DNA of 64,000 nucleotides, taken from assembly GCA_051362555.1 (NCBI GenBank), contig CM120645.1, positions 11,966,001-12,030,000 on the forward strand, read 5' to 3'. This document shows positions 1 through 33,800 of this stretch, one piece after another. This DNA comes from Lingula anatina. Taxonomy: Eukaryota > Animalia > Brachiopoda. How positions within the stretch are numbered: position 1 is the first letter of the stretch; the number at the start of each line of letters is the position of its first letter. The notes beneath the pieces are model-generated. The model was not told the origin of the DNA and ran no database searches. It worked only from the letters and a program-made list of their open reading frames with translations. The translations under genes were made by a program, and so were the position numbers.

Positions 1-3000
1 CCTAACGGTGAGCCCAAGAATTCAGACAAGTACGTGTGTGAAGGAAAAGGAGTTGGCTATGACTGTCACGTGGGATACAGAATATCCAACATGTCTGTGC
101 CTGCAGCTGTCTGCGACTCACAGAAACTGAAAGTTCCTGTTTGTGAGCGTGAGTATCAAACTGGCGGGTTAAATAAATAGCTACGGGTCTTGCAAAAATA
201 AAGTGATCTTGTGAAATATTATCCTTTTAAAAGTTGCCTGTCCATGTCCGATCACTGTCGACTTCCTTACTGATTACGTAACTGGTATCAAAGGCATCAA
301 AAGGTCACTGTGGTGTACCGCCCTCATTCTTAGTTTTTGCCACCAGCGGCAAGTGTTATCGTAAATAAATAGAAGTAATTACATGGGAAGATATGCTCTG
401 GCGACGTCCATACCGTTTTTTCTATTCATCCCCTTCTACCTTGTGAAGTTATTTGTTCATGGAGTCGGTCCTGTATGGCATAAAGTTAAATTCTTTTGAT
501 ATTAGAATGAATGGACAAAATGAATACTTTAATTCAAAACTATTTTCCACTTTACCCTCTTCTTGCAGCGTCTGGAACATGTGACACGACAGCTCTTCGA
601 GACCCTAAACATGGTTTTAAGGTCTGTGAAGACATCAATTCTGGTAAAACGTGCCACATGAGGTGTGAGGATGGTTATAAATATGTCGCTCGTGACAAAA
701 CATTTTACTGTAATCCCGAGACAGGATGGTCTTGGGGGTTACCCCAATATGGTGGCGGATTTCTGCCGTCAACTAGTGTCGAGGACTGTGAAGGTAAGTG
801 GTTCACGTTTAGATATTAAATAATGTAGATATTATATTTTATCAGAAGTTCGTATAATTGGTGTCCAGTTATTAAAGGTATTCGATAAAATACACTTCGC
901 AAATGATAGCCAATCATTTTGTTAGACTTAATGGGCAATCTAAAATTTACATAAGGGATTATGCTTTCAAAGTTAGGATGGTGTCTAAAAAACTAATATT
1001 TTGGTAGATTGTGTTTCCAAACTTCCTATTTATCAAAATTGTACAAATCAACTGCGATATTGGTTATTTTATTGCTGGAATGTGTCGTTTTCAGTGGGGC
1101 ATCTTCTAGGGGTAGACGGTGGTTTGGATGGGCTAATTGCTGATGTTCCTTTCTATGATTACCTCGAAGAGGATCAGATAAAGACAGAGGTTGCTGATGG
1201 TGTTAGAGCCAAACTAAACACACTTGGAAAATGCTCCAAATCGTGCGAGGTAAGAAAGTCTCATGTTTCCATTGGGGAAATTTGTTACATGTCATAATTA
1301 TGGATACAATAGATGTGTAATGACAATGCCAGGAAGTATTACAATTGTGTTGCTGAAGGTCGCGTACATGTGTATATCCCATAAAATTCTATTGAACATA
1401 CTACCTATGATGTCCTTAAAGCGCAGTTTAGAATCTTTTAGGTCAAGGACGTCCAAGTTAAGCGAGCAGGGACTGTAAAGCGGGACACAATGGTCAGTTT
1501 TAACATAAGGATCGTGCTCCACATCCGCGGTGGTGACAGAAACGCAAGTTCTCTTTCAGAAGTTAAAGCAAACGTCTTAAGACTGGCAAAATCAATACAG
1601 TAAGTAATAAATGATTGGCGCGAACGTAACCTTGAATATATATACTGTAGTTGTCCCGCATTTCATCTCAGTTGAATACCTCATGTAATTTACGATTACC
1701 TGCAGATAACAATTAAGTCTATGATATATTTATTTGAACTAGGCAGAATCAGTCCCTGTATTTTCTTATTTAAGGTCCACGGCGTCTGCTATCAAACAGG
1801 TCCTGCAGTCTACCCCTATAGTAATCTCTGTGAACGGCCAATATATCGACTTACAAACCGACAACTTGGTGATAAGTAGACCACGCACAGGATGTCGCAT
1901 GGGGTCCATTAAAAGCGGAATCAAATGCTGTGAGTTTCTCCAGTGTATGAATCATATATGTGATCAGTAACTTAAAAAGTACAACGAAGTGTCTTCCACC
2001 TCAAGGAATTTTTAACGTTTTATGAAAGTACTACGTCAGAATCAACCTTGTGACTCCTTGCCATGTAAAACTTGAATGTCAGATTATGCAAAAGTCAGAA
2101 TTAACGTTTTTTATTAAGGTATTAACTTTCTTTATGAATGTTTTCATAAAGGTTATTAAAGCATCCTTAAGCTTCGCGTAATAATTCTTAACATCTAATG
2201 AAAGGAGACAAGCAGAGAAATAGCATCCACATTCCATTGCAATTTTTAACCGCGTTAATTAATTAGACCAATCATTTCAGACCGCTGTCCCCGTGGTACT
2301 TATCATGATACAAATGATGGGGATTGTCTATCTTGTCCGTTTGGGCATTACCAGGACAACCCTGGGCAGGTGTCTTGTCTCCGGTGTCCTAAAGGCAAAA
2401 CAACTGATAGAATTGGGGTATCAAACGCCACTGAGTGCAAAGGTATATGATAATCGCGTTTGTAATTATTTTTACATTTTGTTTTGATATACAAATACAT
2501 GGGTAGATACGTTCTCCGCTTACCGCACTCGTTCACCACGCTTCTTGTCCTGCCTGTTCCCCTGTTCAACCTTACTCAATGAGTCTTCTTGAAGTGTTCC
2601 GCTTGTTTTTGCAGGCGTTTTCCCTTACTTGAAAAGCGTAACAGTTGTTCATTTAGCTGGAAGAAGTGTCATAAATTGGCTTTTCCTGGGGGAAACGACG
2701 TTTTTTCCATAGTTGAACTCGTTCCATCATATTCAAAGTTAGTCCATGTTTTTCTAAGTTTGTTTTTTTTCGGATGGTAGCCAGGCATTCGTAACAACGA
2801 GACTTTACTGAAAACATTTTACCACTAGAGTATTTCAGTTGCGACTGTGGTATCCACCCTTGTGTATTGAATGGCTCAACATTTACGTGCAAATGCCTTT
2901 CGGGATATATCTTAAAGAATGGAACATGCAAAGGTAAAACTTTTCTGATAGAATAATGAATAAAATATCTACTTTAAGTTTACAAATGTGTATGTTTGGA

Positions 3001-4561
3001 AATATGTTTGCAATTAGCTCTGCGACATGAAAAAAACGATTAAAAATATCTTCATATATCTTCATAAATGTATAATTTGCATATCACATTTATTAACTAT
3101 TCAGTTGCCTAAAAACATTTCTTTGTTCTCATCAATAGATATAGATGAGTGTGCCACCAAGAACCCTTGTCCAACCAATTCCCGTTGCGTTAATCGAGAG
3201 GGTTCCTTCCGATGCCAGTGTTTGCCTGGGTTCCAAGGTCGAAACTGTGAAGGTGCGTTTTTATATTCCATGCTACTTCGAAGGGCAGCTATTGCTTTCT
3301 TACAGTATAGCTCTATTTTTATAGTAGAGAATAAGGGAATTAAGGTAAATGCGAAATGTGAAAAAGTTGTTCACAAATACGTTCTTTGACAGAGTGCAGC
3401 ATGATTGGTAGAAGCTATACATTGTGCGTCGAACCCGTGAATTGCAAACTGTTATGTTTCCTTTGCATAATATTCAGGAAATATACACATAGAATGTTTC
3501 CGATTTCAGACATTGATGAATGTTTGAAGACGTGCAATGGCCTTCACCAGATATGCGTTAACACTGTTGGTAGCTTCAGGTGCAACTGTACGGTGGGATA
3601 TTTCGGAGACAGCTGTGGTCAGTGAATTAATCATTTTCAGAAGGACATGAAATAATTCGTATCTGAACCTGGAACGTACTACAATTAAATGATAAAATAG
3701 CAGTCCTCGATGTTTTAAACGCAAAATTGTACTTGTACAAATCAAAGTGTGTGTTATTTAGTTTCAGTACTTCAGATATTAACCGGCACCTCAATGTTGA
3801 TGAAAATTTGAGTTTTTAACCGTTTTATTTTTTAGATGATTTATGTCCAAATGGCTTCATTCCTGTGTCTGATTCATGGTGTGTGCACATCTTTAATACC
3901 TCAAACCCACAAGTCGCGCGCCTGAACTACGAGAACTCCACCTCGGCGTGTGCTGCCCTCTATCGGCATGCACGTCTGGTGACCATTAAGACTAAAACTG
4001 AGTATAAACACCTTACAAAATTGCTGGCGTCATCGAACATGGAACACTGGATAGGTGGGTGCAGAATATACATAAACATGATATATTTGCTTAATATGTA
4101 TATTTACATTAATTATAGTACTGGTATTGGGAATAATTGTTTATACTCAAACGTTGATGGAAGCATGGCTTTAGTGGGAAATGTAACCTATAGTTGCTTC
4201 GCGTATGTGTAAAATGCACGTAGGATGTAAGGGGAAGTTGGAGCGCGTCATGTATTCGAATATGATAAATGTGTATTCGAATATTGTTATTAACCGTCAT
4301 GTATTGTGTTTCTCCACCATGACAGGACTTAACGACAGGGCACAAGAGGGTCACTTTGTAGCCAGCGATGGCCCCATGCTTGGGAACGATGATTTTTCTG
4401 AGTGGGCACCTGGAAGGCCATCCACCAATACGTCAGCCAACTGCGTCGTCATGGGCGGGAAAAAAGATGCATATATGTGGCGAGATGCTGGCTGTTATGA
4501 AGCAAAATCGTTCCTTTGTGAGATCAGGCGCAAGTCTGGGTCATCTCCCATTATTGGTTAA
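1..4561 (+). CDS. Gene 1: 5'-truncated multidomain extracellular protein (CCP/sushi x2 - SEA-like spacer - Ephrin-rec-like/GCC2-GCC3 - EGF - cbEGF x2 - C-type lectin), SVEP1/SCUBE-like architecture
   Basis: Phase-consistent GT-AG exons: <1-148, 569-793, 1095-1249, 1442-1599, 1775-1929, 2281-2442, 2829-2933, 3139-3252, 3510-3617, 3836-4054, 4326-4561. Motifs: CPRGTYHDTNDGDCLSCPFGHYQDNPGQVSCLRCP (Ephrin_rec_like), DIDECATKNPC..C.N..GSFRCQC (cbEGF), WIGLND...WRD..C....F.CE (CTL). Ends ...RRKSGSSPIIG*. Confidence 0.85.
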
Positions 4562-5193
4562 CTTGCTAAATTTTCAAGGACTGTTCACACTGTTTCTCAA
4601 AAGGCAGTTTTGCTCACATTTTGAGAGAAAAACTTTTTTGAGAACAAAACTTTGCAAGTGTGATGGATTTGTCTGGTAAACAAAAGGAGCTTACCACACT
4701 TTAGACCTTGACACTTTAGACTTTAGACGATATCTTAGTGGGCATTTCACTTTGTCTTACTTTAGGTGTTTTTTCTAGCAAACACTTTGACTTGAAACCT
4801 TCTGTAATATCTTCTCATATTCATAATCTAAAACTGTTGTGCTTGAATAAGACGATTTGGAGTTTCACCTGCAATTGAAAAAATTGAAAATCAAATTTTG
4901 AGATATTTTAATTCACACGATATGATGGTCCAACAATGACTTAATCCGTGTTTGCAGGATTGGTACGGATGATTGATCACTTATTAAATATGTGTTGTTC
5001 ACTGTATGAAAAATGTCATTATCAATTGTTATTCAATTAATTATAAGAACGCACCAGCTTTTTATAAACGTATATACGTATATGCATATATTTACAATAT
5101 TATGTCTATGGCTTCAATTCCAATAAATGCATATATAGTCCTGCTTGAAACGTGCTGGTGACGTTCTTTGACAGATATACAAGTAGGAATGCA

Positions 5194-5549
5194 TGATAGC
5201 AACTGGTAAAGAAAATAAGTGCCCATATGATGAATTCATGATAAATATGATAAGGATCTTATGTTTTCTATACATACTGAAACTATTTAAAGCATAAATA
5301 TGTAATTATAAAATATGTATTTATTTTGTGCTATAAAAATCGGAGACGTTGGAATTGTATCATCACTTGTGAAAAGAAAACAGCTTTTTCACTCACCTTT
5401 TAATTTGGAAGCTTAAAAAAGAGGATAAAACCTTATCACTATGAATTACTTTACATATATTCTGCCAGACATGTGCAATGTTTTTCATGTTATTTCCTTT
5501 AAGATTATCTCCCTTCTGCTGAAAACAGATTATCTTTATCGAGTATAAA
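5194..5549 (+). promoter_or_regulatory. Putative promoter of gene 2: TATA box with clustered GATA sites
   Basis: TATAAA at 5544-5549, about 70 nt before the ATG at 5620. WGATAR matches (either strand) at 5194, 5239, 5248, 5433, 5505 and 5530. Confidence 0.4.
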
Positions 5550-5619
5550 TACACACGCGTCAACATTTTCTATGTGACATGCGGTTGGATTCAAAAGACA
5601 AGCACAGCCGCAGACCAAT

Positions 5620-7894
5620 ATGACTTTGTGCCGAAGTTTGACGACAATATCACTTCTTATTTCGTGTATCATTCAGCCCGGCAGAGGCGCGGTGTACTGC
5701 CCGCCCTATTCGAACCACTTTGAGTGGGTTGGTCCATATTGTTTGCGTTTTGAGAACTTCTATAAGAAATCGTGGTACGATGCAAAACGTGAATGTGAGG
5801 CGAAGGGAACACATTTGCTGGTGTTGGAAACCACAGGAAAACGGGACGAAATCATACGTTACTCAGAAAAGAAAGGAAGTAAGTATAACCGTCTTCGAAC
5901 TGAAATAATGGTAATTTGTAATGTTAATTGTAATTTCCATAAATGCAATTTTATAAAAGACAATGTTAATTGTAATTTCCATAAATACAATTTTAAAAAA
6001 GACAGTGTTATGGTATATTTGCCATATGTTTCTCGACAACATAAAGGTCTGTTGTAGCTTTAAAATAAATCTTCAACATAGCGATTCGATTGCAATCGCA
6101 AATTATTTGATAGCAATTGCGAAGGATTTTATTTCAATTGCATTTGCTTAAATATACCAAAAACAGAAGGGCAATCTTGACAAGCAACATTTTTTCAATC
6201 TTAACAAACAACATTTTGCTACTCAAATCCAGATATTTGAATATTTCTAACGCATATTTCAGACTGGGAGTATTACTGGGTAGATGGAACCAAAGTGAAC
6301 GGCAAATGGATCTGGAGCTCGACAAGAAAGCCACTTTCGACAGCTCTGTGGATGCCAGAAGAACCAAATGGCGATGGCAGTTGTATGCAATACTATAGCG
6401 ATTTTAATGATAGGCAGAAAGGCCCAAAAGGTCTGAATGACCGAAGTTGTTCTTTGGCGTACGAATTCATATGTGAAGACGATTCGGGTGAGTAATAATT
6501 AAGATATACTTCATTGCAATAAGAACAACATTACTTTAGTGAAATATTTTAACACTGAAGCTAAAGATACAGAAAATATAATAATGTCAGATTTAAGTAA
6601 TGGATATGAAAAAGGATGTCAAACCAATCAAAACGTACTTTTTACTAAAAATTGTAATTACAGAAAAGGAAGCAAATCTGCATTTCGAATAGAGTGATCC
6701 AGCTCTAAATGCAATGACCACACAAAAACTGGATATGGAAGACGTTTTCAAAAATATATTTTAAATTATTACATCTTTCATCAGACAACAGCTTAATATT
6801 GAAAACGTTTTCACCTCCAATATTTCGATGTCTAGCATAACATCTTCATCAGAGAATGAGGCTATCCAGGTAAAAACTTTCTCAGCATTAAGCTGCTGAC
6901 TGAAGAAAAATTACTTCGTTCTTATAACATAACACAGTTGATGAAGTTCTCTGTCTGTCTGTAATCTAGTTAATGGTATGTGGGGAGCCTGGGGAAGTTG
7001 GACAGCTGTTCGGTAACCTGTGGTTCAGGGCAACGCTATCGCACACGGGTCTGTGATAATCCCGCACCAAAGGGAGCAGGTTCCCCCTGCAGTGGCCTTG
7101 ACCGACAAACTGAACACTGTCACCATGGAACATGTCCGGGTACGTGACTTATTTTTACAGGGGAGGAAACAGCCGAGTTTTAGTTCCAAAAACAGTGCTC
7201 TAGTGAGCGTGACCTCTCCCAGACACATATTTATGGTCGGGTGCTTTCCTTGCAGTCGCCTTATGTTGACATTTATCGAATATATTGTTTTCCTTCCAGT
7301 GTTGGTTTGAGCATGGCTTTAAATATTTATATCACCCTGTTTTTCATATAGTCGATTCACATTTATATAGGGTTATCTAAAACCGAATTCATACATATTG
7401 TCACAGTCTGCAAAGCATTATACTTTGATGAAATTTTCTTCAAACTTCGTAATAGCTTAAATGTCTAATATGAAGACGAATTGAATATGAAACATAAAAA
7501 AATCAAAATTGTTGACTTTGGACATTAATGTTGATAACTGCAGTTGATGGAACCTGGAGTGTCTGGACGCAATGGTCAACGTGCAGTAAAACATGTGGTC
7601 AAGGCCACAGGACAAGACACAGGGCGTGTAATAGTCCACCTCCAACCAATGGTGGCAAGGACTGCCCAGGACAATTAGTTCAGGTCGAAACGTGCAAAGG
7701 TCAGCCGTGTCCAGGTACGTGTACAGGGTTGGTATTCCGATATAGTAAATCACATAAACCAGCCATCTGTATATTAATAATTAAAATCATACGTACACAT
7801 GGATTGCAATTTGGCTCTAAAATTTTATATATACTTAACTCAAACTAAAAACATGCATTGCTCTTTTCATAACCACGGGTATTTCTGCTTGTAT

Positions 7895-7950
<56 letters not shown>

Positions 7951-8697
7951 CCTATTTTTTTCTCTTTTTACTTGTCATTTTTTTTATTTATTTCAGCCAA
8001 GCTCTGCCCTGCTGGGTTCACTGAGGCCACCGATAGTTTGTGCCTGTACATCTCCGATCCACAGACAGAGCCATACAATTATTTTCTGTCTATGAAGGTG
8101 TGTGCCTCGCTGTCTCCGCTGTCTCGCCTGATGACATTAAAGAACATATACGAATACCATAACATCGTCAGGTTCTTGTCTACAGCGGCTGAATACTGGA
8201 TAGGTAAGTCTCAGCCCAGTAAGTGAGGGATAGATAAGAGTGCCAGCGTATTAACGATTTAACAAAAGCTTGTCATGATAGTCAAATATAATAATAATTA
8301 TAATAATAATAATAATACATTTTAAACTACCCTATTACAAAATGATATGACTGATCTGTTTCTGGAAATGTTATCCCGTCATCTGTGACATGAAACGACT
8401 TTATCTGTGAAATTTACATTTCAAAATAATAATAAACCTTAGTAAAACTGGCAATGTAAAATTATTATCTAATCAGGTGATGACACTACAAGCAGCAGTG
8501 ATGCCAGTACCAAGCTCGGTGGTGGAAGCTTCGCTCTCTGGGCAGCTGGATATCCGTCCTCGCTATCCCTTGGCAATTGCGTTGACTTAAGCGGAAAGAG
8601 TGGAGCGTTTCTGTGGCAAGACGCCCCTTGCTGGGAAAGAAAACCCTTCATTTGCGAACTAAGACCCAAAGATGGAATGGCACCTATTGTTGGTTAA
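5620..8697 (+). CDS. Gene 2: secreted CTL-TSP1-TSP1-CTL protein; exon 3 carries a 1-nt frameshift (pseudogene, null allele or sequencing error)
   Basis: Exons 5620-5878 (signal peptide MTLCRSLTTISLLISCIIQPGRG plus CTL first half), 6263-6487 (EPN motif), 6970-7139 (TSP1, 170 nt), 7544-7714 (TSP1), 7997-8203, 8477-8697 (CTL, ends DGMAPIVG*). The exon total of 1253 nt is one short of a multiple of 3. Confidence 0.85.
5920..6004. repeat. 42-bp tandem duplication in gene 2 intron 1
   Basis: aatgttaattgtaatttccataaat(g/a)caatttta(t/a)aaaagac occurs twice in tandem. Confidence 0.8.
6772..6870 (-). ncRNA. Dispersed repeat carrying a degenerate minimal hammerhead-ribozyme-like motif (Penelope-like element end), copy 1
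   Basis: Minus strand reads tcattct-CTGATGA-a-gatgt(tatgctag)acatc-GAAA-tatt-ggaggtga. About 100 bp is homologous, inverted, to 14466-14557. Confidence 0.45.
7899..7948. repeat. (TA)n microsatellite
   Basis: Perfect TA run in gene 2 intron 4. Further (TA)n runs at about 19298-19360, 38073-38125 and 44660-44692. Confidence 0.95.
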
Positions 8698-9002
8698 ATG
8701 GCAAAAGTGTTAGAGTTCATAGCTCATTAAATAGCTCAATTGCTTTGATGAAAATATCTTTGTCCAAGCACACAGCATGGTGGATAGCAAAACAATAAAT
8801 TTTTTAATTGGAATCATGCAGACGTTGAACTTTTGTTGAAATATTATATTTACTTGCAATATCATTGATTGCAAATGACCGTCTGGCGAGAATATAGCCC
8901 TAAGGTAACACATTCCATTTCCGATGTGCTAAGCACAATACGCTGTTTACAGAAACCTCTCGGCTGGATGGAACCTACGGTACAGGGTTGTTATCAGAAA
9001 CT

Positions 9003-9177
9003 GGCCGTACTCAGAACAGTGGACTAACTGTTCTGCGGGTCAAATATAGCGACCCACTAAAAACCTTGTTGTCTAATCCTCTGATAGTCACTGAATAGAT
9101 TCCCCATGGGGACGTTTCCAAGTGGGTCGGCCATATTTGACCCTCGGACTAGTTAGTCCACTGTTCCGAATGAGCTC
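9003..9177. mobile_element. MITE family A, copy 1 (non-autonomous DNA transposon with terminal inverted repeats)
   Basis: Inverted arms cagaacagtggactaact..gggtcaaatat / atatttgaccc..agttagtccactgttccga. A reverse-complement homolog lies at about 61737-62133. Confidence 0.75.
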
Positions 9178-9539
9178 TTAATGCACACACCCCCTCCTCG
9201 GCAAGCTCGGTGGATCATTTATAGTTTAAATTAGGAGACATATCCCACTTTTAGCACCACAAACATTTAGCATCTTATCTGCCTGCATTAATTGTGCAAT
9301 TAAAAATATCGCCAGACAAATCACACGTAATTAAATTCTCCAATCCCATGTTGGATGTGAGCAAGATTAAATGAATCATTCCCTGTACGTGTGCACGAGC
9401 AAAATCCGCCTTGTTTCTATGTAAACACTAGTTTCTTTAGTAAACGGTGTCTTAGAACCATGTCACAAACACAGACACAAACTCCTTTTTTACTTCACTG
9501 GTACGTGTGACCCCATCTTCGTCATTTAAATGCTAGGGG

Positions 9540-9770
9540 ACCATTCCCAGACCCTGTGGATCTGTGGATCGATCTATCTCAGAGGGGATTCTCGCTTAAT
9601 TGCAATCAACTTAAGCGGTTTAAATGTCTGTCACGGGGTAATTAACTATCGTTTAGCAGCTTCAGTAGGCGTGTCAGACATCTAAGCCGCTTAAGCTGAA
9701 CGCAATTTCATGAGAAACCCATTGGAGATGGATCGATCCCGTTAGATCGATCTAGGCATGGGAACCCAGT
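9540..9770. mobile_element. Foldback MITE-like imperfect palindrome
   Basis: gatcgatctatctc...tcaacttaagcggtttaaatgtctgtcacg pairs with cgtgtcagacatctaagccgcttaagctga...gagatggatcgatc. Confidence 0.6.
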
Positions 9771-10071
9771 CTAGGTCTGTACCTGTTTACCAGGACGTTT
9801 GTCTAGTTTTTTGTAAAGTTTTGCGACAGCTGTTATCAAACGTCTGCTAATTGGTCGCTTAGTTTGCTAACATTCCACCGTTGATTCAGATCTTACCTTA
9901 CACCTACACCAACTACGAACGCCATTAATCCCATGCAGTTAAAAAAAGGCCAATTTATTCAACTGAGTTGTCCTGAAAAAACTTTGCTCCCCTATTTACA
10001 CTGTAAGTTGTGTATTCATTACACCATTAGATATCACTGCAAACAGCGATACCACAGGTGTTGAAAATATC

Positions 10072-13000
10072 ATGGAAGACAGCAGTAAAAAGGGGATATT
10101 CCTCTTCTTGTTAGTAGTTCTCGTTTATTGGGTCCATTTTACGCAAGGGTAAGGTGATTTCACAGTTTTGTTTAGGTACTGACACACGCGTAAACAAACG
10201 CACACATACATGCAAATCCACGGATTTTTAGCATTTTGTTTGATAAAGCAAACGTTCAAATGATTTTAAGTGTATGGTTAATTTATTATTTATAGTAATA
10301 TCTAAAAGTATTTTTTCAGTATACTCTTGAAATATAATCATGTTAATTTCGCTTCCCCCAAAACATTTGCTGCGGAAGATGCGTACATATTTGCAGAAAA
10401 CGAAAAAAGTTGTAATGAAATGCAATTTAATGTTAACAGCATTTTGCAGTTATTGCGCTGTCTGTTCTCACATTTCATAATTTCTACACAGGGCGTGTTA
10501 TCCACCAAGGTACGGTATACAGACCCGCAGCACTCGTCAACGGTACACCACGGGCTGCGGCTTCTGGGGCTGGGGACGATGTTCAAGATACCGGTAAGTC
10601 GCTGTTCAAAGAAATGTGCAGAAACCTCACGGACGCGATACGCGGTTTAAAATATATATTATGGTACAGTGGAGTTTAGTATAACGAAGGTTTTTAGGCG
10701 TTTTGGAACTTACGTACGCTACAAATAAATTCTGCTTTCGTGGAGAACAAAGTTAAGGCAATTCACATGCATATGTTAATGCATATTCTATAAATTTTCA
10801 ACTTTTCGTTTTTTAACTATATCACTTACTATACCATTTATAAAATAGAGGATACGATGTTTGTTTATAGAGTGATTGCTTTATTGGGTGGTTGATCATC
10901 ATAATGTGTACATGTAGAGTTATTTAACACAATGTTCATAAGTCTATGATGATTAATATTCACATTTATTCGTGTAAAAATATTGCATGATGCTATCATT
11001 TTGACTAAAGAACTGTGCATCGTTTGTTGCGTGAGTGGTGAAGTTCACCTCTAAATATGCGGACGCGTTTCTGTATCACCGAGACATTTAAAAAACGGGT
11101 CACTCACAACCTGTTACCATGCACTCAGTTCTGTATCAGAATAAAAGAATCTGGTCATGCCTAACGTAGAATGATGTTTACATATTATTCCGAACGTCCC
11201 AAATGAGCTTCAATATTTGTTTTTCAGAGAGATGAGTATACTGATTTTAAAAATGTTGTCTTCAGCTCATTTTTCATTTTTCTTATATATTTATTTATTT
11301 ATTATCATTTCTCTACTCTTCGTAAATGAGGGTCAACTTGTGTCTGTAATATTCTAATATCATGCCAGAAACTTATACCTTTACGATCCACTAAATATAT
11401 TTACTCACTCATTTTTCAGATATGTAACAACATATCAATGTGTGTTTTTGGCAGGTACGTACACGTGATTTGATATTGGAGAAACTTTTTATACAGAAAA
11501 GTGGAAAGTGTCTGTGTCAGTTCCTATACAAATGATGGTGTTGTATTGGTTCCAGTGACTACCATAGACTCTATATAGTGCAGTGCCGTCCGCATGTTGA
11601 GAAATTTTGATGTGCTTTGTAACATCTGAAATAAGAATACATGTATACGCGTCAGTCGTTACGAAAAATAATCATACAATACATATCTTTTCCCAATCAT
11701 ACAATTTTAAAAGTGTGCACGGCAACCTGTTGTGCTTGTTTTAAATGGTCCTTATTGATCTCTTTTTTAAAATTTACGATTTATAAAGACTGGTCATCCT
11801 ACATCATCTGCGTGGAATGCCCTATAACGAATATGATACATAAATTCTACCAACTGCACGTGTTAATGGGTTCCGCTGATTTGTTGTCGAAATCGGTAGT
11901 AGGCCTATGCATTTTAAACGCGCAGTTTAAAGTTTTACTTCAATACACGCATATTGACAAATTTATACCTGCAATTAAAACAAGATACTGGAAAGTACAA
12001 TGCACCGTGTTTGCTGACTTCTTCGTGATTGACTTCTTCTGGAGACAATCAAATTAATGATACATTTACCTTGCAGTTGACGGAGGCTGGGGTGCCTGGT
12101 CACACTGGTCAGCGTGTGGAAGCTTCTGTGGTCAAAGCACCAGACTGAGGCTACGATCATGTAATAACCCGCATAAACAAAATGGCGGCCGTGACTGTGT
12201 CGGGAGTAATGTTCAAAAAGAGTCGTGTGACGAAGGGTTTTGTTCAGGTAAATGTTGTGTTGTGTTGATTGGTTAAAATAGCTGTCACCTGCAAACACAA
12301 CACAAAATGCGTCTGATAGAAATTTATAAAACTGCTATATGAAAAACTAGCGAGCAAAATGTTTACAGTAGTACATTGAAATGAGGAGACTTCTCCTAGT
12401 TCCTCATGAATTTATATGGGCAAATACCATATAAGAATGCACGTCCGCTTTGCTTTGAAATAGTACTTAAATTTAGTTTTGTCGACGGTCATGAAGCCAT
12501 CAACACTAATAAAATGAAAAACTTCATTTCAGGATCGCCTTGTCCTAGTGGTTTCACTAAAATCTCAGAGAACTGGTGTCTGTACATTTCCGGTAAAAAT
12601 GTACTAAAAACCTACAGCGATGCCAACACGTTCTGCACTTCATTGTCAAAACACGCACGCTTGGTGACGATCAAACATAAAGCAGAACAAGATATAATCG
12701 TTAAAAAGTTGCCAGCACATGCTGATTGTTGGATAGGTAGGTGGAATCCTTTAATTCAGTTTACTTGTGTGATCTGTGCGAATTCCGGTCGGTCTCTTGC
12801 TATATGGCACCCAGTTCGATGAGTGTAGTTGCCTCACAGGATTGATTGATATGTCAATATAGTTTTAGAGTTATTTCATACATATTGTGTAACTTGTAAC
12901 TGCATATGACAAGGAATTCTAGTGTGACTTTATAAAGGGTTATCCCTATACATTTTCCCTATGCATATGATCGCATTTAGCTGTAATCGCATAATTACAT

Positions 13001-13506
13001 GTAGATGGAAAATGTATCCCACTTAACCAAGTTTTTAATACACTTTCTGAGAAACATATTATGCAATACGAGGTATTGAACTTCGTTTTTACCTTGTTTT
13101 GAAATCACTTTTATAACACACAGCCCGTGCCGGCCGGGTTTTTAACTAGGTTTCTTCGTTACGTTAAAGTGAGTTTTAATATATCTGCATACAGAGAGCA
13201 ATGAGGATTCCTCGCTGTTAGCTTTATTTTAACGGTAACTACATGTTAGGAATTCCGCTGTGTTAACTAGGTCTAGACGACAGGACAACCGAGGGACAGT
13301 TCGTGTTCAGCGACGGCACCAAACTAGGGCAAGGGTCCTTCACCTACTGGGAACAGGGCAGTCCTTCCAAAAGTACGTTGGCCGACTGTGTGTTCATAGA
13401 TGGGAAGGGAGCTGGATACATGTGGAGAGATACCAGGTGTGAGGAGAGGAAAATGTTCAGCTGTGAAATTCGAGCAAAAATGATATCAACCTCCTTAATT
13501 GGCTGA
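10072..13506 (+). CDS. Gene 3: secreted 274-aa protein, signal peptide - Arg/Tyr/Trp-rich 4-Cys EMI-like hairpin - TSP1 - C-type lectin
   Basis: Exons 10072-10148 (MEDSSKKGIFLFLLVVLVYWVHFTQG), 10492-10593 (ACYPPRYGIQTRSTRQRYTTGCGFWGWGRCSRYR), 11420-11454 (YVTTYQCVFLA), 12077-12247 (TSP1 VDGGWGAWSHWSAC..), 12533-12736, 13271-13506 (CTL, ends MISTSLIG*). Total 825 nt, in frame, all junctions GT-AG. Confidence 0.8.
13123..13149 (+). mobile_element. Possible Helitron 3' end relic
   Basis: A GC-rich mini-hairpin cccgtgccggccggg is followed a few nt later by ctag, the typical Helitron 3' arrangement. No 5' end was identified. Confidence 0.3.
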
Positions 13507-13593
13507 TCCGTTTATTGATTCCTTTGCACCCAACGGATTTTGTTATGTTGTCGTGTTGTGAAAGCGCTCTTGTGTGTAGAATTGAATACAAAT

Positions 13594-13691
13594 CCCAACA
13601 GACAAACGACATTGATTCACCGTTGAATCAACGTTAATTTTGGTGGATCAACGCTGAATCAACGTAGAATCAGTGTCGTTTGCCTGCTGGG
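13594..13691. mobile_element. Short MITE with CCC termini (CMC/EnSpm-like) just 3' of the gene 3 stop
   Basis: cccaacagacaaacgacattgattc ... gaatcagtgtcgtttgcctgctggg. It is flanked on both sides by aat (putative TSD) and contains internal tgaatcaacg repeats. Confidence 0.7.
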
Positions 13692-14465
13692 AATGCTTTA
13701 TTTAAAAAGCAGAAGGACTGTTTTTAATCCAACTGCAACGCTCACAAGGCGTTTAAACATTGCTATGCCACTCAGTTTCTTATAATTTGCCGCACATGTT
13801 TGGCTAAATATTTGGTGACCATTGGTTTACTTGGTGACTTCTTTAGTTGTACTGATTATAAATCTGCCTATCCAATGTATAGGCTTTGCCTGTAGCACAA
13901 ATATTGTAACATAGTAAATCTATTCACAATTACAAAGTGAAACTTATATACTTTAAATAGTTAAATACTTACTCGCTGAATGCGTTTCTTCCATGTCTTT
14001 TTTATCCAAATTCTGTAATAAGGTTTATGCGTACATTGTATGGGCATCTTGTCTTTTTTAAACCCCGCGTTGTTTTAAATGAATCATTGTTACACTGTAG
14101 GTGCTTGACTTTCTACTGTAATTAGTATATCTATCGCTTATCATTACCATAATATCATATCCTTTGGCTAGTAAAGTAATAAAACACCTGAATGCATTGT
14201 ATCTTTGTTTGGCAGAAAATTCATATTTTATTTCAGAATGTATGCTGTAAAGGTTTAATGTGGATTGGATAAAATTAACCCAAGCTTATGTGTCAACCAT
14301 GCGTGAGCTAAACAATGTTTTATCTATATACATCGCCATTATATTGGGTTACTATATACACATGTATGAAAGCAAAAAAAAAAAAGCGAGCTGCTGTATT
14401 GTGAGCTGCTATTACTGTCATCTAGTCACCAAACAAGTCTTGGTCTCCGGAAAAGAGGCTATTCC

Positions 14466-14557
14466 CCTGAATAGCCTCATTCCCTGATGAAGATTTTCTG
14501 TCAGACATCGAAATATTGAGGTAAACTATTTCAATATTAAGCCGTTGATTGAAAATG
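14466..14557 (+). ncRNA. Dispersed repeat with hammerhead-like motif, copy 2
   Basis: tcattcc-CTGATGA-a-gattttctgtcagacatc-GAAA-tatt-gaggtaa, homologous to 6772-6870 (-). Confidence 0.4.
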
Positions 14558-14773
14558 AGTTACTTTATTCTTGCAAATAGTTATACTTGTAAAGTCAAAA
14601 CGTAAATGCTCAATTGCCTTTTGCCTTGTCTACATTCCTGTTGCTGCATAAACGTGTGATCTATAATGTTTGTCTTTAATTGTGTTATTATTCTATCACA
14701 CCAACGCATCTTTCGTTAAGGATACGGGACCTTGATGATTCATGTAAATTCACCGTATAGATCTTAATGAAAA

Positions 14774-14892
14774 TATAAGCATATTATTAATGATGCATCT
14801 CCGAAGATCTACTTTACAGATGTCAAATATTCACCGTATATTTGACATCTGTAAAGAAGATCTTCCGAGATGCATCAGTAATAATGCTTATA
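14774..14892. repeat. Long near-perfect inverted repeat (about 55-bp stem, 7-nt loop)
   Basis: ...tgatgcatctccgaagatctactttacagatgtcaaatat-tcaccgt-atatttgacatctgtaaagaagatcttccgagatgcatca... There are 3 mismatches in the inner 48 bp. Confidence 0.9.
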
Positions 14893-15185
14893 GATACGGG
14901 ACCTGAAATGGATATGAGGGAAATATGCATTCTTTCAGATATAGTCCTATAAGTTTCCTTTTTTCGGTCCAGTTTCTGTTGATTTGGTAAAATACGATAT
15001 AGTACGATGTATATAAAATATATGAGAGAGAGAGAGAGAATGAGAGGAAGAACTTTAAAACAAATGTGCGAGAAGGGTGCTTCCAGTTTTTATCTTTATT
15101 GTATGTCATCCAATATGTGATTTACGTCCACTTTCAAAAATGACAGCCATACGAGCAATACGATTGAAACGACAGCTTTGCCATT

Positions 15186-18100
15186 TTAACCAACAATAGG
15201 CGCGAGTGCATCTTTGGGTCTCAGTTCACAAATGAAGGGTTTTCTTTCCCAGCAAGGGGCGTCTTGCCACAGAAAAGTCCCACTTTTCCCACTCAAGTCA
15301 ACGCAATTGGTAAGGGAGCGAGCAGACGGAAATCCAGCGTCCCAGATGGTAAAACTACCAGTCCCTAGCTTGGTGCCACCGTTGCTCAAAGAACTACTGC
15401 CGCTTGTAGTGTCATCGCCTGGTTAGATAACAATAGTTGTTTTATACTGCCAGTTGTACTTAGGTTTGTAATTTTTATATCAAAATATCTTACAATAAAC
15501 CCATCGATGACCGGATAAAGTGCCGAGACGTTTTTGTAGCGCAGTTTTAAGCAATGCATTATTATCGTAATAGTTATTATTCTTATAGTTGTTGTTATTA
15601 TTTTTAGTATCTGACCGTCTAGACAAGCTTAAGTTAAGTTGTTGAGTGTTAACACTGTGTAGATTTACCTATCCAGTATTCAGTCGCTGTAGACAAGAAC
15701 CTGACCATGTTATGGTATTCGTATTTGTTCCTCATTGTCATCAGGCGGGACAGCGGAGACAGCGAGGCACACGCCTTCATGGACAGAAAATAACTGTATG
15801 CCTCTGTCTGTGGGTCAGAGATATACAGGCACAAGCTGTCGGTGACCTCAGTGAATCCAGCAGGACAGAGTTTGGCTGTAAACGGCAAAAAAAGAGAAGC
15901 ATAAAATGAAATAAATAATTAATAGTTTAAAAACGTATTTTTAGTTATCTAACGAGTCAGTAATATATTTCTCTGGCACAAAAGTGTCACCCCAAACGCA
16001 GTGCGAAAAGTGATGCAGAAAATCCTGTCATGAACTAATGTCATTTATTCAACTTCTAAAATGAATTGTGTCACAAAAGAATCACTGATTGTACAACCAA
16101 TGGATAACCTTACCATACAGTAAATAAATAAAAGCCAAAACTTAATATTCTGTATAGTATCACCTGACTGATAATTATGATACATACAAGCATATACCAG
16201 AATGCCAACCCTGTGTGCGTACCTGCCCGTTGACCAGCGTGTCCACATATTCCACACTGCATCACTCTAACATAAAATAATGCATCGAATTTAACGCTGT
16301 AAACGTACCTGGACACGGGGGACCTCTGCACGTTTCGACCTGAACTAATTGTCCTGGGCAGTCCTTGCCACCATTGGTTGGAGGTGGGCTATTACACGCC
16401 CTGTGTCTTGTTCTGTTGCCCTGACCACAGGTTTTACTGCACATTGACCAGTGTGTCCAGACACTCCAGGTCCCGTCCACTGTAATAGGAAACAAAGCCA
16501 AATACAGTTCTCTGTTTTATGGAAATTGAAGAGAAACAGAAGTCACGCACGTAATCACCGCCACGCTAAAGGAGAATGTAGTAAAGCACACTCTACATGT
16601 ATATCTGGTATAAACTAATGGTGTTTTGTAACGTGAATGTCAAACGTGTAAAATACTACAGGTTGAAATTTATCAGTTGATTCTTAATCAAATACTTGTG
16701 TTTTCGATGAAGCGATAGTGAATAATATATTATCATTGAAGGTGTGCAATCATTCTGGTATACAGCAATGTACTTCCAAGGCCACGTGTTGGTGTGTCCG
16801 CGTGACTGGAGTTATCATTCAATGTGAACTTTTTTGCTTATTTGCTTGAGTAAATGACACACTTCTACTTTAACATTAAACAGATAAGACATTGTAGTTA
16901 TGTCACTCACTAGGGCACTGTCCTGGGAAGCAGAGTTCGGTTTGTCGGTCAGCTCCAGGGCAGGGTTTACCTATGCCGACTGGAACTGGGTTATTGCACT
17001 GTCGGGTTCTATATCTTAATCCTTGTGCTCCACATGTAAGGGAGCACCGACTCCATGATCCCCACGATCCCCAAGCTCCGTTCACTTAAATTGAAACAGA
17101 TCGTTACCGTCTTATGTTACAGTGCTGCACTCATCGGTAATTGAGTAATAGTAGTAATAGAAACTTTTTTAAATAGTAAATAAGTAAATATCCTTACTCA
17201 TTGTGATTGTTTAATAACATATTCACAAAAATTGTATTCATATTGTCATTTTCATCCACACAAGTGGATGCATATGTTACAGTGGAATAAACTATAAACT
17301 ATAATACGTTTTAAGGGAGTATTACATACAAATAATCCATTTACAGCAGTTCCCACTAGGGATAAGTGTAACAAGAAAAGGACTCAAATAGCACAGAGAT
17401 TCGCCAAGGCAAGCCAAGTTTCATTAATTTTAATTAATTGAAATTATTAATCAAAGCATAGGTTTAGAGTCGAGCTATGTGTGATGCAGTACAATGATGT
17501 GCTGTAAAGAGCACGTGTAAAGCAAAATGGGCACATATATAATTAGCCCATACCTGTATTATATTCACACAAGAAGTTGGAATTGAGTTCACATGGGTAA
17601 TCATGCAGGTCTTTGCCCCCCATTACTTTAATTGCTATACAGTCTTCTAATCTTTCCGGATTTCCTGGTTCACCGGGGGACCATAAATTTCCCTCCACCT
17701 TGGTACCCTTGGAATACCAGATCCAGTAGCCGTTCCCCTGGGGTTCTCTTCCATCCACCCAAGTGGCCCACGTTTCGCCTGAAAACAGAAACAAACGTAC
17801 TACATGGTGCATTGGACTACTACACAAAACGAATGCGCTCTCGAAATGTTCATTACAGTTGGGAAATTCATACATTTAAGACCACAAATATACGAGACAG
17901 CAAACAAACAAAACTCAGTCAAAAAACCCATACTAGCGAAAAAATTGCTAACCGGCGTTTGCTATCAGATAGTTGTAAAAGGCATCTCTCCTTCTGGTTG
18001 TATCTGGTACACCTAAGTGAGCTCCCTCCCTCTCACATTGGAGGCGAGCCTGGTCCCACGATAGCTTGATATTCCGCTCATAACGCACACAAACAGAGTC

Positions 18101-18202
18101 GACCATTACATAGCGGGTTGGACAATATGCTCCAGTTATCCCGGGCGCCATAAAGCAGGAAAAGATAAACCACAGAAATATAGTTCTGTGACTGTCATCC
18201 AT
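15186..18202 (-). CDS. Gene 4: secreted 419-aa CTL-TSP1-TSP1-CTL protein, intact inverted paralog of gene 2
   Basis: Exons 18202-17953, 17778-17554 (EPG motif), 17084-16911, 16479-16309, 15875-15669, 15418-15186. Total 1260 nt, in frame. Signal peptide MDDSHRTIFLWFIFSCFMAPGITG; ends DALAPIVG*. Confidence 0.9.
16223..16256 (-). pseudogene. Relic of a duplicated TSP1 exon inside gene 4 intron 4
   Basis: ag|tg tgg aat atg tgg aca cgc tgg tca acg ggc ag|gtacgcacacagggttggcattc encodes WNMWTRWST, compared with WSVWTQWST in gene 2. The downstream donor region matches the start of gene 2 intron 4 (gtacgtgtacagggttggtattc). Confidence 0.6.
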
Positions 18203-19294
18203 TTCGGATAGTATGAAAAATATAGTGAGCCTAAAACAGCCATCAGTGTCCTTTTGCGTGATATTGTTACCTTACATCGATAGTGAGGCTACAGGTAAAA
18301 AATGCGACAATGATAACAGCTCTAAATGCTATCTTTACACTGGTAAAACAGCTGTGCTAGGATATCTTCGTTCAGATGCAATGCCTTTCGACAAGAACAA
18401 AGTCCTTGGCTCTTACTTAGACGTACATGTGGGATTGGCCTTAATTTTCATATGATCAGCTTCCAGTGTGTTAGCTGTAACTTTTTCTGATTATCAGATA
18501 CGTAGATTCAGCACATATAAAGCACAACAGGTACGTCCATTACGATATTCTTCAACATGGAATCGGTGCTTAAATGAGAACTGCAATAAAGAAAACATAA
18601 AATGCATTATTAATTTTGTTAATGATTTTCACTCTTTTTATGTTCGTGACTTAATTGGTGTCGAACACCGCCATTATTATTCTTAATCATGGTAACAAAT
18701 ACCCACAATCATATTGAAAATGGTTAGCTTAATATATGTGGTTTGTTAATTATTATTTACATTTATTTCTAATTAATATTTGTGGTTTCAGATTTTATTT
18801 ACTTTGTAAACAGCGCTGAGATGCATGTGTAGTGCCGCTTTAAGCGTTTGCCAAAAATTCCTTATCTCACCCACAACCCAGTGGGCAAAATACAGAATGG
18901 TATAGAATTTATGAAGCTAATTTATCATAGGGCTCTGTGCCTGTTGTGGAGGATGTCATGACACCAGGGAATTGTGGGTAGATTGAGGTACATGTATCCC
19001 ATAGTGTACCATTACAATTCCTAAAGGAACACGGAGCCCCAATTGGATTTGCCGAAAATGGGAAGAGTTAATTACCTGACATACTAAAAGCTGACGAGAA
19101 TTACCCAAGGTTATTGAAGGAAGAACAATAGTTTTAAACTGGTATAAAATTCATATTAAAAACAGAAAAGTACTTCCTTGGTGTTTTTCAAAACAGATTT
19201 TCAGCAGTTGGAATTAGCTGTCTAGAATAGATTTTAGCTTCAATTTTGTTTTTTTTTCCATCTGCTGTTTCAAGAATTGCTATCACATAATTTT

Positions 19295-19362
<68 letters not shown>

Positions 19363-21099
19363 TCTGTAAATGTCCATTAGATAATTTTAGTGCAGTTACA
19401 CGCTTTATTTATGGTCACCAAACTTGTTCACAAATCGGAGAGATAAAACATTAAGTCAGCTAGCATGGATGTCATAATAAGAATAAGGTGTTTCTAATAT
19501 GTTTAAAATGCTATGGATATGAAGTTAAAGAGACCTTTAAACTTTAAATATCTAGTCGCATATGTTAAACTAGATAAGATTTCCTCTGAATGTTCCAGTC
19601 CTACAGTGTTTTTTTTAAGTGGGGTTTACAATTATAAGATAGAGGTGCTTTATACTCGGCGCAGTCCATTTTACATCTCAGTGAAGCATATATAGTACCG
19701 CATCAAGTTTTTTTTAATCCCATCCCAATTATTATATGTAAGATGATTTTATATGTATCTGCTTAATAAAGAAAATCGTTTGTACATTTATTAAAATAAC
19801 ATTTTTGTCATTTCCTGTTCAATTTTGTACTTTAAGAAACAGTGTTTCTGTCATCGCGATCTGAACTCTCGTGACGCCACTGGTGACGTTAGCGGGCGGG
19901 GTCCTTGGCATGTCCAGCCTGCAAGAAATGCGCAAACCTTTTATTTGTTGATGGTGGATCGCAGAAAAATTGATTATGATCGAAGTAAAAAAGCTTGCAA
20001 AATAAAATCTCAAAGTTTTGGTTTAACAGGTATGTACGACACCAGCTGGTTGTATTTTTTTTTCGCGAAGTCGCACCCATCTTTTATGTCGTTCGACTAC
20101 CTTAGAGTTGCTCGAGTTAGACTTGCTGGCTTATTGATTTTTTCTGACTCAAGTGAAACTGCAGGTCATTGGTTATATATGATACCCGGTCAATTATCTT
20201 GTTTTGAATATGTTTTTAGTTCTCTCCAGCGTGTAGTTGAGCGGATGATTCATTGTCGTCAACAAACCTCTAGACAATTTATTAGTATAATTTATATAAC
20301 TGTCGTCTAAATTCTTGCACCATATATGTACATTACAGCATGAATTTGTTAAAAAAATACTTTTGGAAAAAGAATGATTCTATTTTTCCTAATAATGCTT
20401 GACAAAAACGTTTACATGAAAGTTTATCATTTGTTTTTTTTGTGTACTTGTAGTGTATATTTTATCAAGCACATCCAATGAACATGCAATTGTAACCTTT
20501 CAAATAAAGTAACAAACCGCAAAGACCAAAGAACAATTTCAGACCTATAAAGAATAATTGTTGATCAATGTTAGTCCATTAAGCGCCATTAAGTTTTGTG
20601 GTCCTCTATTTTGCTACTGAAATATGACCGCTCGAATTCATCGCTATCCTACTTTAGAAATGACACGTAAGATGACTGATTTTTATGTTGCTTAATGCTG
20701 ATGGTTGTTCAATCATACAGCCCCTTGAGACAATTTCATCGTGACTCAATGTCATTGATAAACATTCCAATGATACGTCAGTATTAGTAATTTGCGACTT
20801 ACATGCACATAGGATGTATGGGAACCAATAATGATGATTCTGTGACACTAAGTTAAAACGATGTACATTGTATTTATAGAGTTATATGTATACTCGATGA
20901 CAGATCTTTGTTCGGTTCGCCTAATGTAAAAACCATGTCTCGTTCGCATGTTAAACAGTGTCCGAAGGTTTTCGAGAGAAGGTAGCTAAAATGGAGAAGA
21001 ATCACGCCATACAGACTGTCATGGTCAGACCAGTAATGAACGTTTCTAAAGGACCGATTAGGCCTATCCGGAAAAGCGAGGTGGAGTTGTCATTTTACA

Positions 21100-21143
<44 letters not shown>

Positions 21144-31080: not shown

Positions 31081-31964
31081 GGAGGAGTGTTTAGGAACTC
31101 AAAAATTTTGGTACCACACAAAGGCTATTGATATAATATAATTAAACTTTACTTGTTGACTTAACAGCTGCGAAATTCATTGATTACAAAGAATATAAAT
31201 CAGCAAGATATGTGGGATATAATATATTAGCCTATAGCTTGAGTGAAATTTGAAGGTTTCTTCGCTACTTAAAAGTTAAACCATTGATACATATACCATG
31301 CCCCGGTATCAAACAGACGTCTGCATGTAATTCCTACAGGGAAAAACTATAACTGCCCTGCAAAGAAATATATTTTAATACAACATTTGGCCATTGGATA
31401 AGCATCATATCTCATACGGGCAAAATATATGCATTTTATCATACAAATGCAATAGTGCTGTGATAAAGATTTTGAATTCACATATTTATTGGAAACTCCT
31501 GGGAACTCTTATATATAATTTAAACGTTAGGTGAATTGTAAACTTTGAGGTTTGTTATTCAATACATCGGTGCACACATTAAAGTCTTTGTATATATTTA
31601 CCATACGTACATAAGTGCACGGAAATTATTGTACGAATACACGTTTACCTGTATGATTCCGTTCCTGTGATCATGATATTTCATTGAACTTAAACATTTT
31701 ATTTTATGTGCACATCTTTTCTACTGTCAGCAAAGTGGTCTTGCGTTAATCAAGTGGAATTGTTATATTATTTCATATGTGACCTGTAACATTGTTTTCA
31801 TGAAGTATGTAGACTCAACGACAATTTAAATAAATTTGCATTAACATCTTACTCTTTATTATAAAATAAATAAAAAAAAAAAATTTACACCAGGCAGTAA
31901 TGGTATTCAGCTGACACAGCGTTTTGGAATACAGATTTGCGGTTAAAAATTTTTAATTAATATA

Positions 31965-33622: not shown

Positions 33623-33800
33623 TATATGCGGCTATTGGGTTTACATTTTCGACAGTACGCGTGTTGTCTCCAAAGTCAGGTGATGAAGCGACTAGTCAAT
33701 GGACAAGGCTGACTGAATATGAACACAATTACAAGAAGCAGGCACTAGTCACCATCCTCGATCTTTCTAAAGGGTATGCGTTTATTCTAAATCCCACTGG

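What the first reader, a model, noticed from the sequence alone, without database searches (positions are those of the whole stretch)
3836..15875. Four different secreted proteins share one terminal lectin cassette ending in a conserved -I-(I/V)-G-stop tail
Seen: genes 1-4 have different N-terminal parts (CCP/EGF array; CTL-TSP1-TSP1 twice; cationic hairpin-TSP1). All end in a homologous two-exon CTL split at the same W-I|G phase-1 intron, and the last exons of genes 1 and 3 are both 236 nt. After the final Cys each has a same-length tail: CEIRRKSGSSPIIG*, CELRPKDGMAPIVG*, CEIRAKMISTSLIG*, CELRPKDALAPIVG*. The tail middle varies, but R-x-K and the hydrophobic-hydrophobic-Gly end are kept. Established: this CTL lacks the EPN/QPD and WND calcium-sugar motifs (it has RPS/YPS/SPS/FPS and WRD/WQD), so it is unlikely to be a classical sugar binder. 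Inference: a modular 'variable head plus constant tail' system in which the terminal CTL and free C-terminal Gly motif act as a common docking, polymerisation, sorting or processing tag.
Basis: partly seen in the sequence, partly recalled or inferred. Interest (0 to 1): 0.8.

Follow-up and report, generated by a model that had tools for sequence, protein, structure and literature searches.

The report
Shuffled lamp-shell lectins, amidatable shared tail
In the lamp shell Lingula, a family of duplicated, likely secreted lectin genes combines different front ends with one kind of sugar-site-less end domain whose last three residues are conserved, and the final glycine would likely be turned into an amide that serves as a shared recognition tag.

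Summary
Real feature, more ordinary in origin than first read. The four terminal C-type lectin domains, the W-I|G phase-1 intron and the 13-residue tails are there. The genes are paralogs of one family found only in Lingula anatina records (7 loci, 4 deep lineages). Genes 2 and 4 share a recently copied 3' cassette, gene 2 is frameshifted in this assembly, and gene 1 also starts with CTL-TSP1. New members keep tail length and [ILV][ILV]G-stop (0 of 146 other hits do), but not the K of R-x-K. Synonymous sites are saturated and UTRs unalignable, so the end is under selection (neutral simulation P<0.0003; ordinary-linker null 0.005-0.04). Head and terminal-domain trees conflict (AU p 0.0014 and 1e-9): cassettes were shuffled. 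Most heads keep EPN/QP-type sugar motifs; terminal domains lack them. Two AlphaFold monomers leave the tail end unstructured. Best mechanism (0.45): the glycine is an amidation donor giving an Ile/Val-amide tag; untested. Seven RNA runs gave no usable exon coverage. No earlier scan note on this family was found.

The parts
569..3617 (+). Gene 1 upstream exons in the window (569-793 Sushi-like, 1095-1249, 1442-1599, 1775-1929, 2281-2442 ephrin-receptor-like, 2829-2933 EGF-like, 3139-3252 and 3510-3617 Ca-EGF); the 5' part (leader, CTL, TSP1, Sushi) lies before the window
   Evidence: GT-AG model; Pfam; 386 of 387 compared residues identical to P0007; P0007 domains
3836..4054 (+). Gene 1 terminal CTL, first exon (ends W-I-G, phase 1)
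   Evidence: 68 of 72 identical to P0007
4326..4561 (+). Gene 1 last exon: second half of CTL, 13-residue tail ending P-I-I-G, stop TAA
   Evidence: 69 of 77 identical to P0007
5620..6487 (+). Gene 2 leader and head CTL (exons 5620-5878, 6263-6487) with EPN and LND motifs
6970..7139 (+). Gene 2 first TSP1 exon, 170 nt, frame broken near 7000-7005 in this assembly
   Evidence: intact in RefSeq P0006
7544..8697 (+). Gene 2 3' cassette: TSP1 exon 7544-7714, terminal CTL exons 7997-8203 and 8477-8697, tail ending P-I-V-G, stop TAA; AATAAA 97 nt after the stop
10072..11454 (+). Gene 3 leader and basic four-cysteine head (exons 10072-10148, 10492-10593, 11420-11454; 7 K/R, 0 D/E in 46 residues); no family assigned
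   Evidence: equals RefSeq P0001
12077..13506 (+). Gene 3 TSP1 exon 12077-12247, terminal CTL exons 12533-12736 and 13271-13506, tail ending S-L-I-G with codons GGC TGA; AATACA 79 nt after the stop
15186..16479 (-). Gene 4 3' cassette: TSP1 exon 16479-16309, terminal CTL exons 15875-15669 and 15418-15186, tail ending P-I-V-G, stop TAA; AATAAA 86 nt after the stop
   Evidence: allele P0010 111 of 113 identical
16911..18202 (-). Gene 4 leader, head CTL (18202-17953, 17778-17554; EPG and LHD motifs) and first TSP1 exon (17084-16911); whole gene is an open 419-residue model

Best explanation
These are paralogs of one family, found only in Lingula records, of likely secreted mosaic lectins whose front ends and terminal C-type lectin cassette have been reshuffled, and whose conserved final glycine likely serves as an amidation donor, so that the mature proteins would end in an Ile- or Val-amide tag on a predicted flexible linker. 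Shown: gene structure, paralogy, conflicting head and terminal trees, loss of the canonical calcium-sugar motifs in the terminal domain and their near-retention in the heads, selection on the last three residues and the stop position. Inferred: the head binds glycans (on microbes, gametes or mucus); TSP1 or Sushi/EGF modules act as spacers; PAM clips the Gly in the secretory pathway; the terminal domain plus amide tag is read by a common partner or receptor, or protects the end from carboxypeptidases. All class 1-1 exons make the shuffling easy; duplication with conversion or unequal exchange is the inferred route.
For: All 7 loci (11 sequences, 4 deep lineages) have 13 residues after the last Cys and end [ILV][ILV]G; 0 of 146 non-family hits end so, and 35 non-family terminal CTL tails range 2-59 residues. 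Between deep lineages pS is 0.67-0.78 (saturated) and 6 of 6 UTR pairs score like shuffles, yet length and end persist: neutral simulation P at most 0.00025; WAG simulation at average-to-linker rates 0.038-0.005. Gene 3 keeps Gly and stop with different codons (GGC TGA against GGT TAA). Last three columns evolve at 0.81 of the mean, the six before at 1.16; window rank 10 of 150. Two AlphaFold monomers model the CTL at pLDDT about 90 and the last 5-6 residues under 50: exposed, not packed on its own domain. A C-terminal Gly on a secreted protein allows amidation without a protease (PMC6919629, passages); PAM occurs throughout metazoa and can amidate protein C-termini such as antibody heavy chains (PMC6529398, passages). 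Shuffling: AU p 0.0014 and 1.3e-9 on 6 taxa; g2/g4 pS 0.73-0.86 in the three 5' exons, 0.21-0.47 in the three 3' exons.
Against: No amide, protein or partner was observed. Gly alone is not significant (kept in 12-28% of simulations), the motif was picked after seeing it, and only P0018 is a deep lineage new to the test. 10 of 146 unrelated hits also end in Gly. Low pLDDT came from 24-sequence alignments in which most rows lack the tail, so it is weak evidence of flexibility. PAM was not looked up in Lingula and its co-expression is unknown; its preference for hydrophobic penultimate residues is recalled, not found in a paper here. The terminal domain is not constant: 12 of 149 residues differ between two alleles of gene 1 against 1 of 387 upstream (Fisher p 1.5e-6), which fits a diversifying surface better than a fixed adaptor. 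RefSeq model P0006 runs gene 2 on past the Gly into gene 3, probably a fused model since it holds an internal leader, but not excluded.
Confidence: 0.45

Rival explanations
1. The tail is an inherited linker under only generic purifying selection. The genes share it because they are duplicates; Gly-stop is a frozen accident, for example read-through of an old phase-1 splice donor (G|GT then TAA), with no specific job.
For: All genes are paralogs; only 4 deep lineages. Whole-tail pN (0.29-0.48) is like the domain's (0.34-0.39). 3 of the 4 window genes end G|GTTAA, and every module boundary of the CTL, TSP1 and EGF exons is phase 1. Gly alone survives in 12-28% of simulations.
Against: The four sites score -0.8 to -4.4 as donors against 2.6-12.3 for 23 real donors; gene 3 lost the GT but kept Gly and stop by synonymous change; three-residue motif kept in 0.5-3.8% of linker simulations; no indel in the tail while the domain's loops have several.
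Confidence: 0.25
2. One reading: the unmodified hydrophobic-hydrophobic-Gly carboxylate inserts into a pocket of a partner, or of another copy of the terminal domain, and links the proteins into oligomers or a matrix.
For: Variable linker of fixed length followed by a conserved three-residue end is the anatomy of a peptide ligand; the tail is not packed in monomer models; the terminal domain lacks the sugar motifs and is free for protein contacts.
Against: A free terminal Gly in the secretory pathway is a PAM substrate in principle. The residues before the end vary (P in 9 of 11 sequences, S in 2), and no conserved free cysteine sits in the tail.
Confidence: 0.2
3. The tail is a cryptic amidated peptide: cleavage at the basic residues just after the domain releases a 7-8 residue Ile/Val-amide signal.
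For: Invariant Arg and mostly Lys 11 and 9 residues from the end; RR in g1, P0007 and P0018, followed in P0018 by Gln. Precedent: the Chlamydomonas GATI-amide comes from the C-terminus of a 94 kDa protein (PMC6919629, passages).
Against: No dibasic site in g2, g3 or g4 tails; the Arg lies in or just after the last strand (E257-264) and may be structural; the would-be peptides share only their last three residues.
Confidence: 0.1

Closest known systems
RefSeq Lingula anatina models XP_013406091.1 ('tetranectin-like'), XP_013410232.1 ('SCO-spondin'), XP_013410229.1, XP_013410195.2, XP_013406090.1, XP_023932370/1 (uncharacterized)
   Same: Alleles or paralogs of the window genes; same terminal domain and tail.
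   Different: Automatic names only; no paper held names four of these accessions or two LOC ids. XP_013410195.2 fuses genes 2 and 3.
C-type lectin-like domain superfamily (Pfam PF00059; nearest solved folds CEL-I 4wqq/1wmy, SRCL 2ox9, DCIR 5b1w)
   Same: Long-form CTL fold, rmsd about 2 A, 24-29% identity; brachiopods carry about 100 CTL genes (PMC10140915, passage).
   Different: Terminal domain has xPS and W[RQ]D instead of EPN/QPD and WND, and a fixed 13-residue tail not seen in 146 other hits.
PAM-amidated proteins (Chlamydomonas Cre03.g204500 GATI-amide; antibody heavy chains and ubiquitin as PAM substrates)
   Same: Large secretory-pathway protein with an exposed terminal Gly after a hydrophobic residue (passages).
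   Different: Here the Gly is the coded last residue and follows a lectin domain; amidation is not shown and no receptor is known.
Invertebrate lectin-plus-TSP1 or variable-head recognition families (Hydractinia rhamnospondins, snail FREPs/CREPs, insect dual-CRD immulectins)
   Same: Secreted, tandem, polymorphic, lectin domain on repeat spacers (all recalled; a search for rhamnospondin found 0 papers).
   Different: Different lectin folds or layouts; no conserved amidatable tail is recalled for them; immune function is not shown here.

Membership tests
C-type lectin-like domain superfamily | PF00059 above cut-off, core cysteines, WIG motif, CTL fold | tested here: met
   P0001 57.1 bits against cut-off 22.6; six Cys and WIG invariant; Foldseek E 2e-11 to CEL-I
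Calcium-dependent sugar-binding CRD (terminal domain) | EPN or QPD motif | tested here: not met
   RPS, YPS, SPS or FPS in 11 of 11 sequences
Calcium-dependent sugar-binding CRD (terminal domain) | WND motif | tested here: not met
   WRD, WQD or WKG in 11 of 11. Non-canonical sugar binding is not excluded.
Calcium-dependent sugar-binding CRD (head domain) | EPN/QPD and xND motifs | tested here: inconclusive
   EPN in 5 of 8 head sequences (EPG, QPN, QPE in the rest); xND in 4 and xHD in 2 of 7 complete heads; binding not tested
PAM amidation substrates | C-terminal Gly | tested here: met
   11 of 11 sequences; one of them is the gene 2 half of fused model P0006, cut at the Gly
PAM amidation substrates | Entry into the secretory pathway | tested here: inconclusive
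   Hydrophobic N-termini by eye; helix 5-23 in the P0001 model; no predictor run
PAM amidation substrates | Accessible, unstructured C-terminus | tested here: inconclusive
   pLDDT under 50 for the last 5-6 residues in two models from shallow alignments
PAM amidation substrates | Amide on the mature protein; PAM in the same cells | not testable with these tools
Neuropeptide-type precursor | Dibasic convertase site before the Gly-extended peptide | tested here: not met
   RR in g1, P0007 and P0018 tails only; none in g2, g3, g4, P0003, P0008
SCO-spondin or tetranectin (RefSeq labels) | VWD/LDLa/TIL array (SCO-spondin); coiled-coil neck and single CTL (tetranectin); features recalled | tested here: not met
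   Pfam shows only TSP1 and CTL in P0003 and P0001
Variable-exon, constant-exon clusters (protocadherin, UGT1A type) | Many heads spliced to one shared set of terminal exons | tested here: not met
   Each gene has its own terminal exons, gene 4 on the other strand
Lingula shell matrix proteins | Detected in the shell proteome | tested here: not met
   0 hits for six accession stems in the supplement of PMC13425148; its listed PF00059 protein is XP_013394109.2

The most novel reading that the evidence does not exclude
Lingula has an antibody-like secreted system: recombined sugar-binding heads are joined to a constant-region-like non-lectin domain that ends in an amidated hydrophobic tag read by one shared receptor, so new specificities plug into one downstream response.
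Probability: 0.12. Interest if true: 0.8.

Novelty: new variant of a known kind. Interest (0 to 1): 0.42.

Why it matters
Lineage-specific lectin mosaics are common and mostly uncharacterised. This one offers two testable handles: a clear case of head and terminal cassettes exchanged between paralogs, and a coded last residue that predicts a defined mass shift (loss of Gly, gain of an amide). If confirmed, amidation would be a family-wide feature of folded lectins and not only of peptides, and the tag would give a bait for finding a receptor in a phylum with almost no functional immunology. If not, it is an ordinary tandem lectin family.

Tried and rejected
Run search: no RNA holder listed; 9 same-species runs offered. 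Seven of the 9 were laid (6-30% of each read): reads fell on repeats, exon bins had depth 0 to about 2 from stray reads (one TSP1 patch looks like a paralog), no GT-AG joint was listed, so splicing past the stops and the gene 2 frameshift are untested. A two-copy complex prediction of the terminal domain gave no verdict; whether the tail binds anything stays open. Word-index searches with P0001 residues 128-274 and 26-75 found only P0001 (1 of 35 and 1 of 1 candidates). Atlas: gene 3's head gave only scores under 0.8; my recalled likeness to half an EMI domain was not supported by Pfam. Active splice donor at the Gly: rejected by score. Shared constant exons: rejected. Shell protein: not in one proteome. 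Gerdol 2018 on Lingula immunity is not held (cited) and may already describe these lectins. Paper searches for this family gave nothing on it (listings only). Earlier scan notes: none on this family.
Full report
Observation. Exon models built by coordinates with GT-AG ends (one exon added) give four genes: gene 1 (+, from before the window to 4561), gene 2 (+, 5620-8697), gene 3 (+, 10072-13506) and gene 4 (minus, 18202-15186). Each ends in a C-type lectin (CTL) domain in two exons split at W-I|G in phase 1; the last exons are 236, 221, 236 and 233 nt and the tails read as quoted. Pfam confirms CTL, TSP1, Sushi, ephrin-receptor-like and EGF exons. A tblastn of the domains finds no further copy in the window. 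Gene 2's first TSP1 exon is 170 nt and breaks the frame; the RefSeq allele is intact, so this is a null allele or an assembly error.

What it is. A profile of the four last exons found Lingula anatina proteins, and an exhaustive HMMER search of 1.84 billion representatives added P0010 and P0018. Single-domain scores are 101-141 bits for the family and at most 43 for the other hits among the best 150, so the family is known only from Lingula in this library; other brachiopod proteomes may be absent from it. There are 7 loci: g1/P0007, g2/P0006 first half, g3/P0001, g4/P0010, P0003, P0004/P0008 and P0018, in 4 deep lineages. P0007 shows that gene 1 starts with leader, CTL and TSP1 like genes 2 and 4. 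The common plan is leader, head CTL (replaced by a basic four-cysteine segment in gene 3), TSP1, variable spacer, terminal CTL. The shared tail is therefore inherited.

Shuffling. Heads of g2, g4, P0003 and P0004 are 31-39% identical, their terminal domains 74-85%; P0003 and P0018 show the reverse, 72% and 43%. On six taxa the head alignment rejects the terminal tree (AU p 0.0014) and the terminal alignment rejects the head tree (p 1.3e-9) (P0018's head is partial, P0004's inserted FN2 domain was left out, alleles were dropped). Between genes 2 and 4 synonymous difference falls from 0.73-0.86 in the three 5' exons to 0.21, 0.23 and 0.47 in the three 3' exons, while 4 of 5 introns align no better than shuffles. 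A TSP1-plus-CTL cassette was thus copied or converted between older genes. EPN is present in 5 of 8 heads, with xND or xHD in 6 of 7 complete ones, whereas 11 of 11 terminal domains have xPS and W[RQ]D or WKG: by established CTL knowledge (recalled) the head is the likelier sugar binder. Against a truly constant cassette, gene 1's terminal domain differs from its RefSeq allele at 12 of 149 residues against 1 of 387 upstream (p 1.5e-6).

The tail. All 11 sequences have 13 residues after the last Cys and end [ILV][ILV]G; Arg at -11 is invariant, Lys at -9 is Gln in P0018. Among 146 non-family hits none ends so and 10 end in Gly; 35 of them have a terminal CTL, with tails of 2-59 residues, 13 in two. 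Between deep lineages synonymous sites are saturated and none of 6 UTR pairs beats shuffles; a neutral simulation keeps length and motif in at most 0.025% of runs, a protein simulation at average to fast rates in 3.8-0.5%, and Gly alone in 28-12%. The last three columns are slower than average (0.81), the six before faster (1.16). Gene 3 writes Gly and stop as GGC TGA, the others GGT TAA; as splice donors the four sites score -0.8 to -4.4 against 2.6-12.3 for 23 real donors; poly(A)-like signals follow at 79-97 nt in genes 2-4 and further away in gene 1. So the end is terminal by sequence and moderately well supported as selected, with the caveat that the motif was chosen after the fact. RefSeq model P0006 continues past gene 2's Gly into gene 3; its internal leader and the stand-alone model P0001 suggest a fusion artefact.

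Structure. AlphaFold on 24-row alignments gives a confident CTL for P0001 and P0003, with the last strand ending at or just before the conserved Arg and the last 5-6 residues under pLDDT 50. The nearest solved folds are ordinary CTLs at 24-29% identity. The tail is not predicted to pack on its own domain, but most alignment rows lack it.

Mechanism. A variable linker of fixed length with a conserved three-residue end at the very C-terminus points to something that reads the terminus. For a secreted protein ending in Gly the established reader is PAM: a terminal Gly allows amidation with no protease (PMC6919629, passages); PAM is found throughout metazoa, can act on protein C-termini, and amidation serves receptor recognition and stability (PMC6529398, passages; PMC3652174, passages); the penultimate residue affects enzymatic efficiency (PMC11608224, passages), and the preference for hydrophobic residues is recalled. 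I put 0.45 on an attached Ile/Val-amide tag, 0.25 on an inherited linker without a specific job, 0.2 on docking by the unmodified tail, 0.1 on a released peptide (RR is present in only 2 of 4 lineages). No step beyond the sequence is shown.

Biological setting. Unknown. Seven RNA runs gave no usable exon coverage. The accessions are absent from the supplement of a shell proteome (PMC13425148: passages, section 8 and supplement searches). The genome papers PMC4595640 and PMC13121700 do not mention lectin or thrombospondin in their main text (passages); their supplements were not read and may hold expression data. Brachiopods have about 100 CTL genes (PMC10140915, passage).

Novelty. Mosaic CTL families and exon shuffling are known kinds; the terminal domain is a CTL-like domain but fails the calcium-sugar motif tests, and the RefSeq names do not fit. 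I found no description of this family or tail, but the 2018 paper on Lingula immunity is not held. Verdict: new variant of a known kind, interest 0.42; the bold reading, a variable-head system with an amidated constant tag, has probability about 0.12.

Noticed in passing
window 3838-4558 against P0007: Gene 1's terminal CTL differs between two assemblies at 12 of 149 residues while 386 of 387 compared upstream residues are identical: diversifying selection or conversion from an unseen paralog.
   Followed up: partly
window 10492-11454 (+): Gene 3's head is a basic four-cysteine segment over two phase-2 exons with no family match; it recalls half an EMI domain (recalled, not supported by Pfam).
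   Followed up: partly
window 3617-3624 (+): If the donor after gene 1's last EGF exon is read through, the frame stops two codons later, which would give a form without the terminal CTL.
   Followed up: no
window about 18900-34900 and 34700-47600 (+): A large tandem duplication (75-94% identity) holding two DEG/ENaC channel genes (PF00858), each with a Ser/Gly/Tyr-rich repeat insert in the extracellular region (24328-25035, 39875-40570).
   Followed up: partly
window about 46676-57500 (-): A CLCA-family gene (PF08434) with a likely C-terminal membrane helix; its 3' end is also duplicated near 33600-34700.
   Followed up: partly
window 62620-64000 (+): Long single-exon ORF with a leader, acidic Thr-rich repeats and a cysteine cluster that recalls somatomedin-B adhesion receptors; no Pfam hit at E 0.01.
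   Followed up: no
window 6780-6955, 9000-9175, 9520-9775, 13590-13695, 14770-14895: Short palindromic, MITE-like repeats; the first four draw most of the RNA reads from elsewhere in the genome.
   Followed up: no
window about 56300-56900 (-): Broken reverse-transcriptase-like pieces (YADD-type motif) in an intron of the CLCA gene.
   Followed up: no
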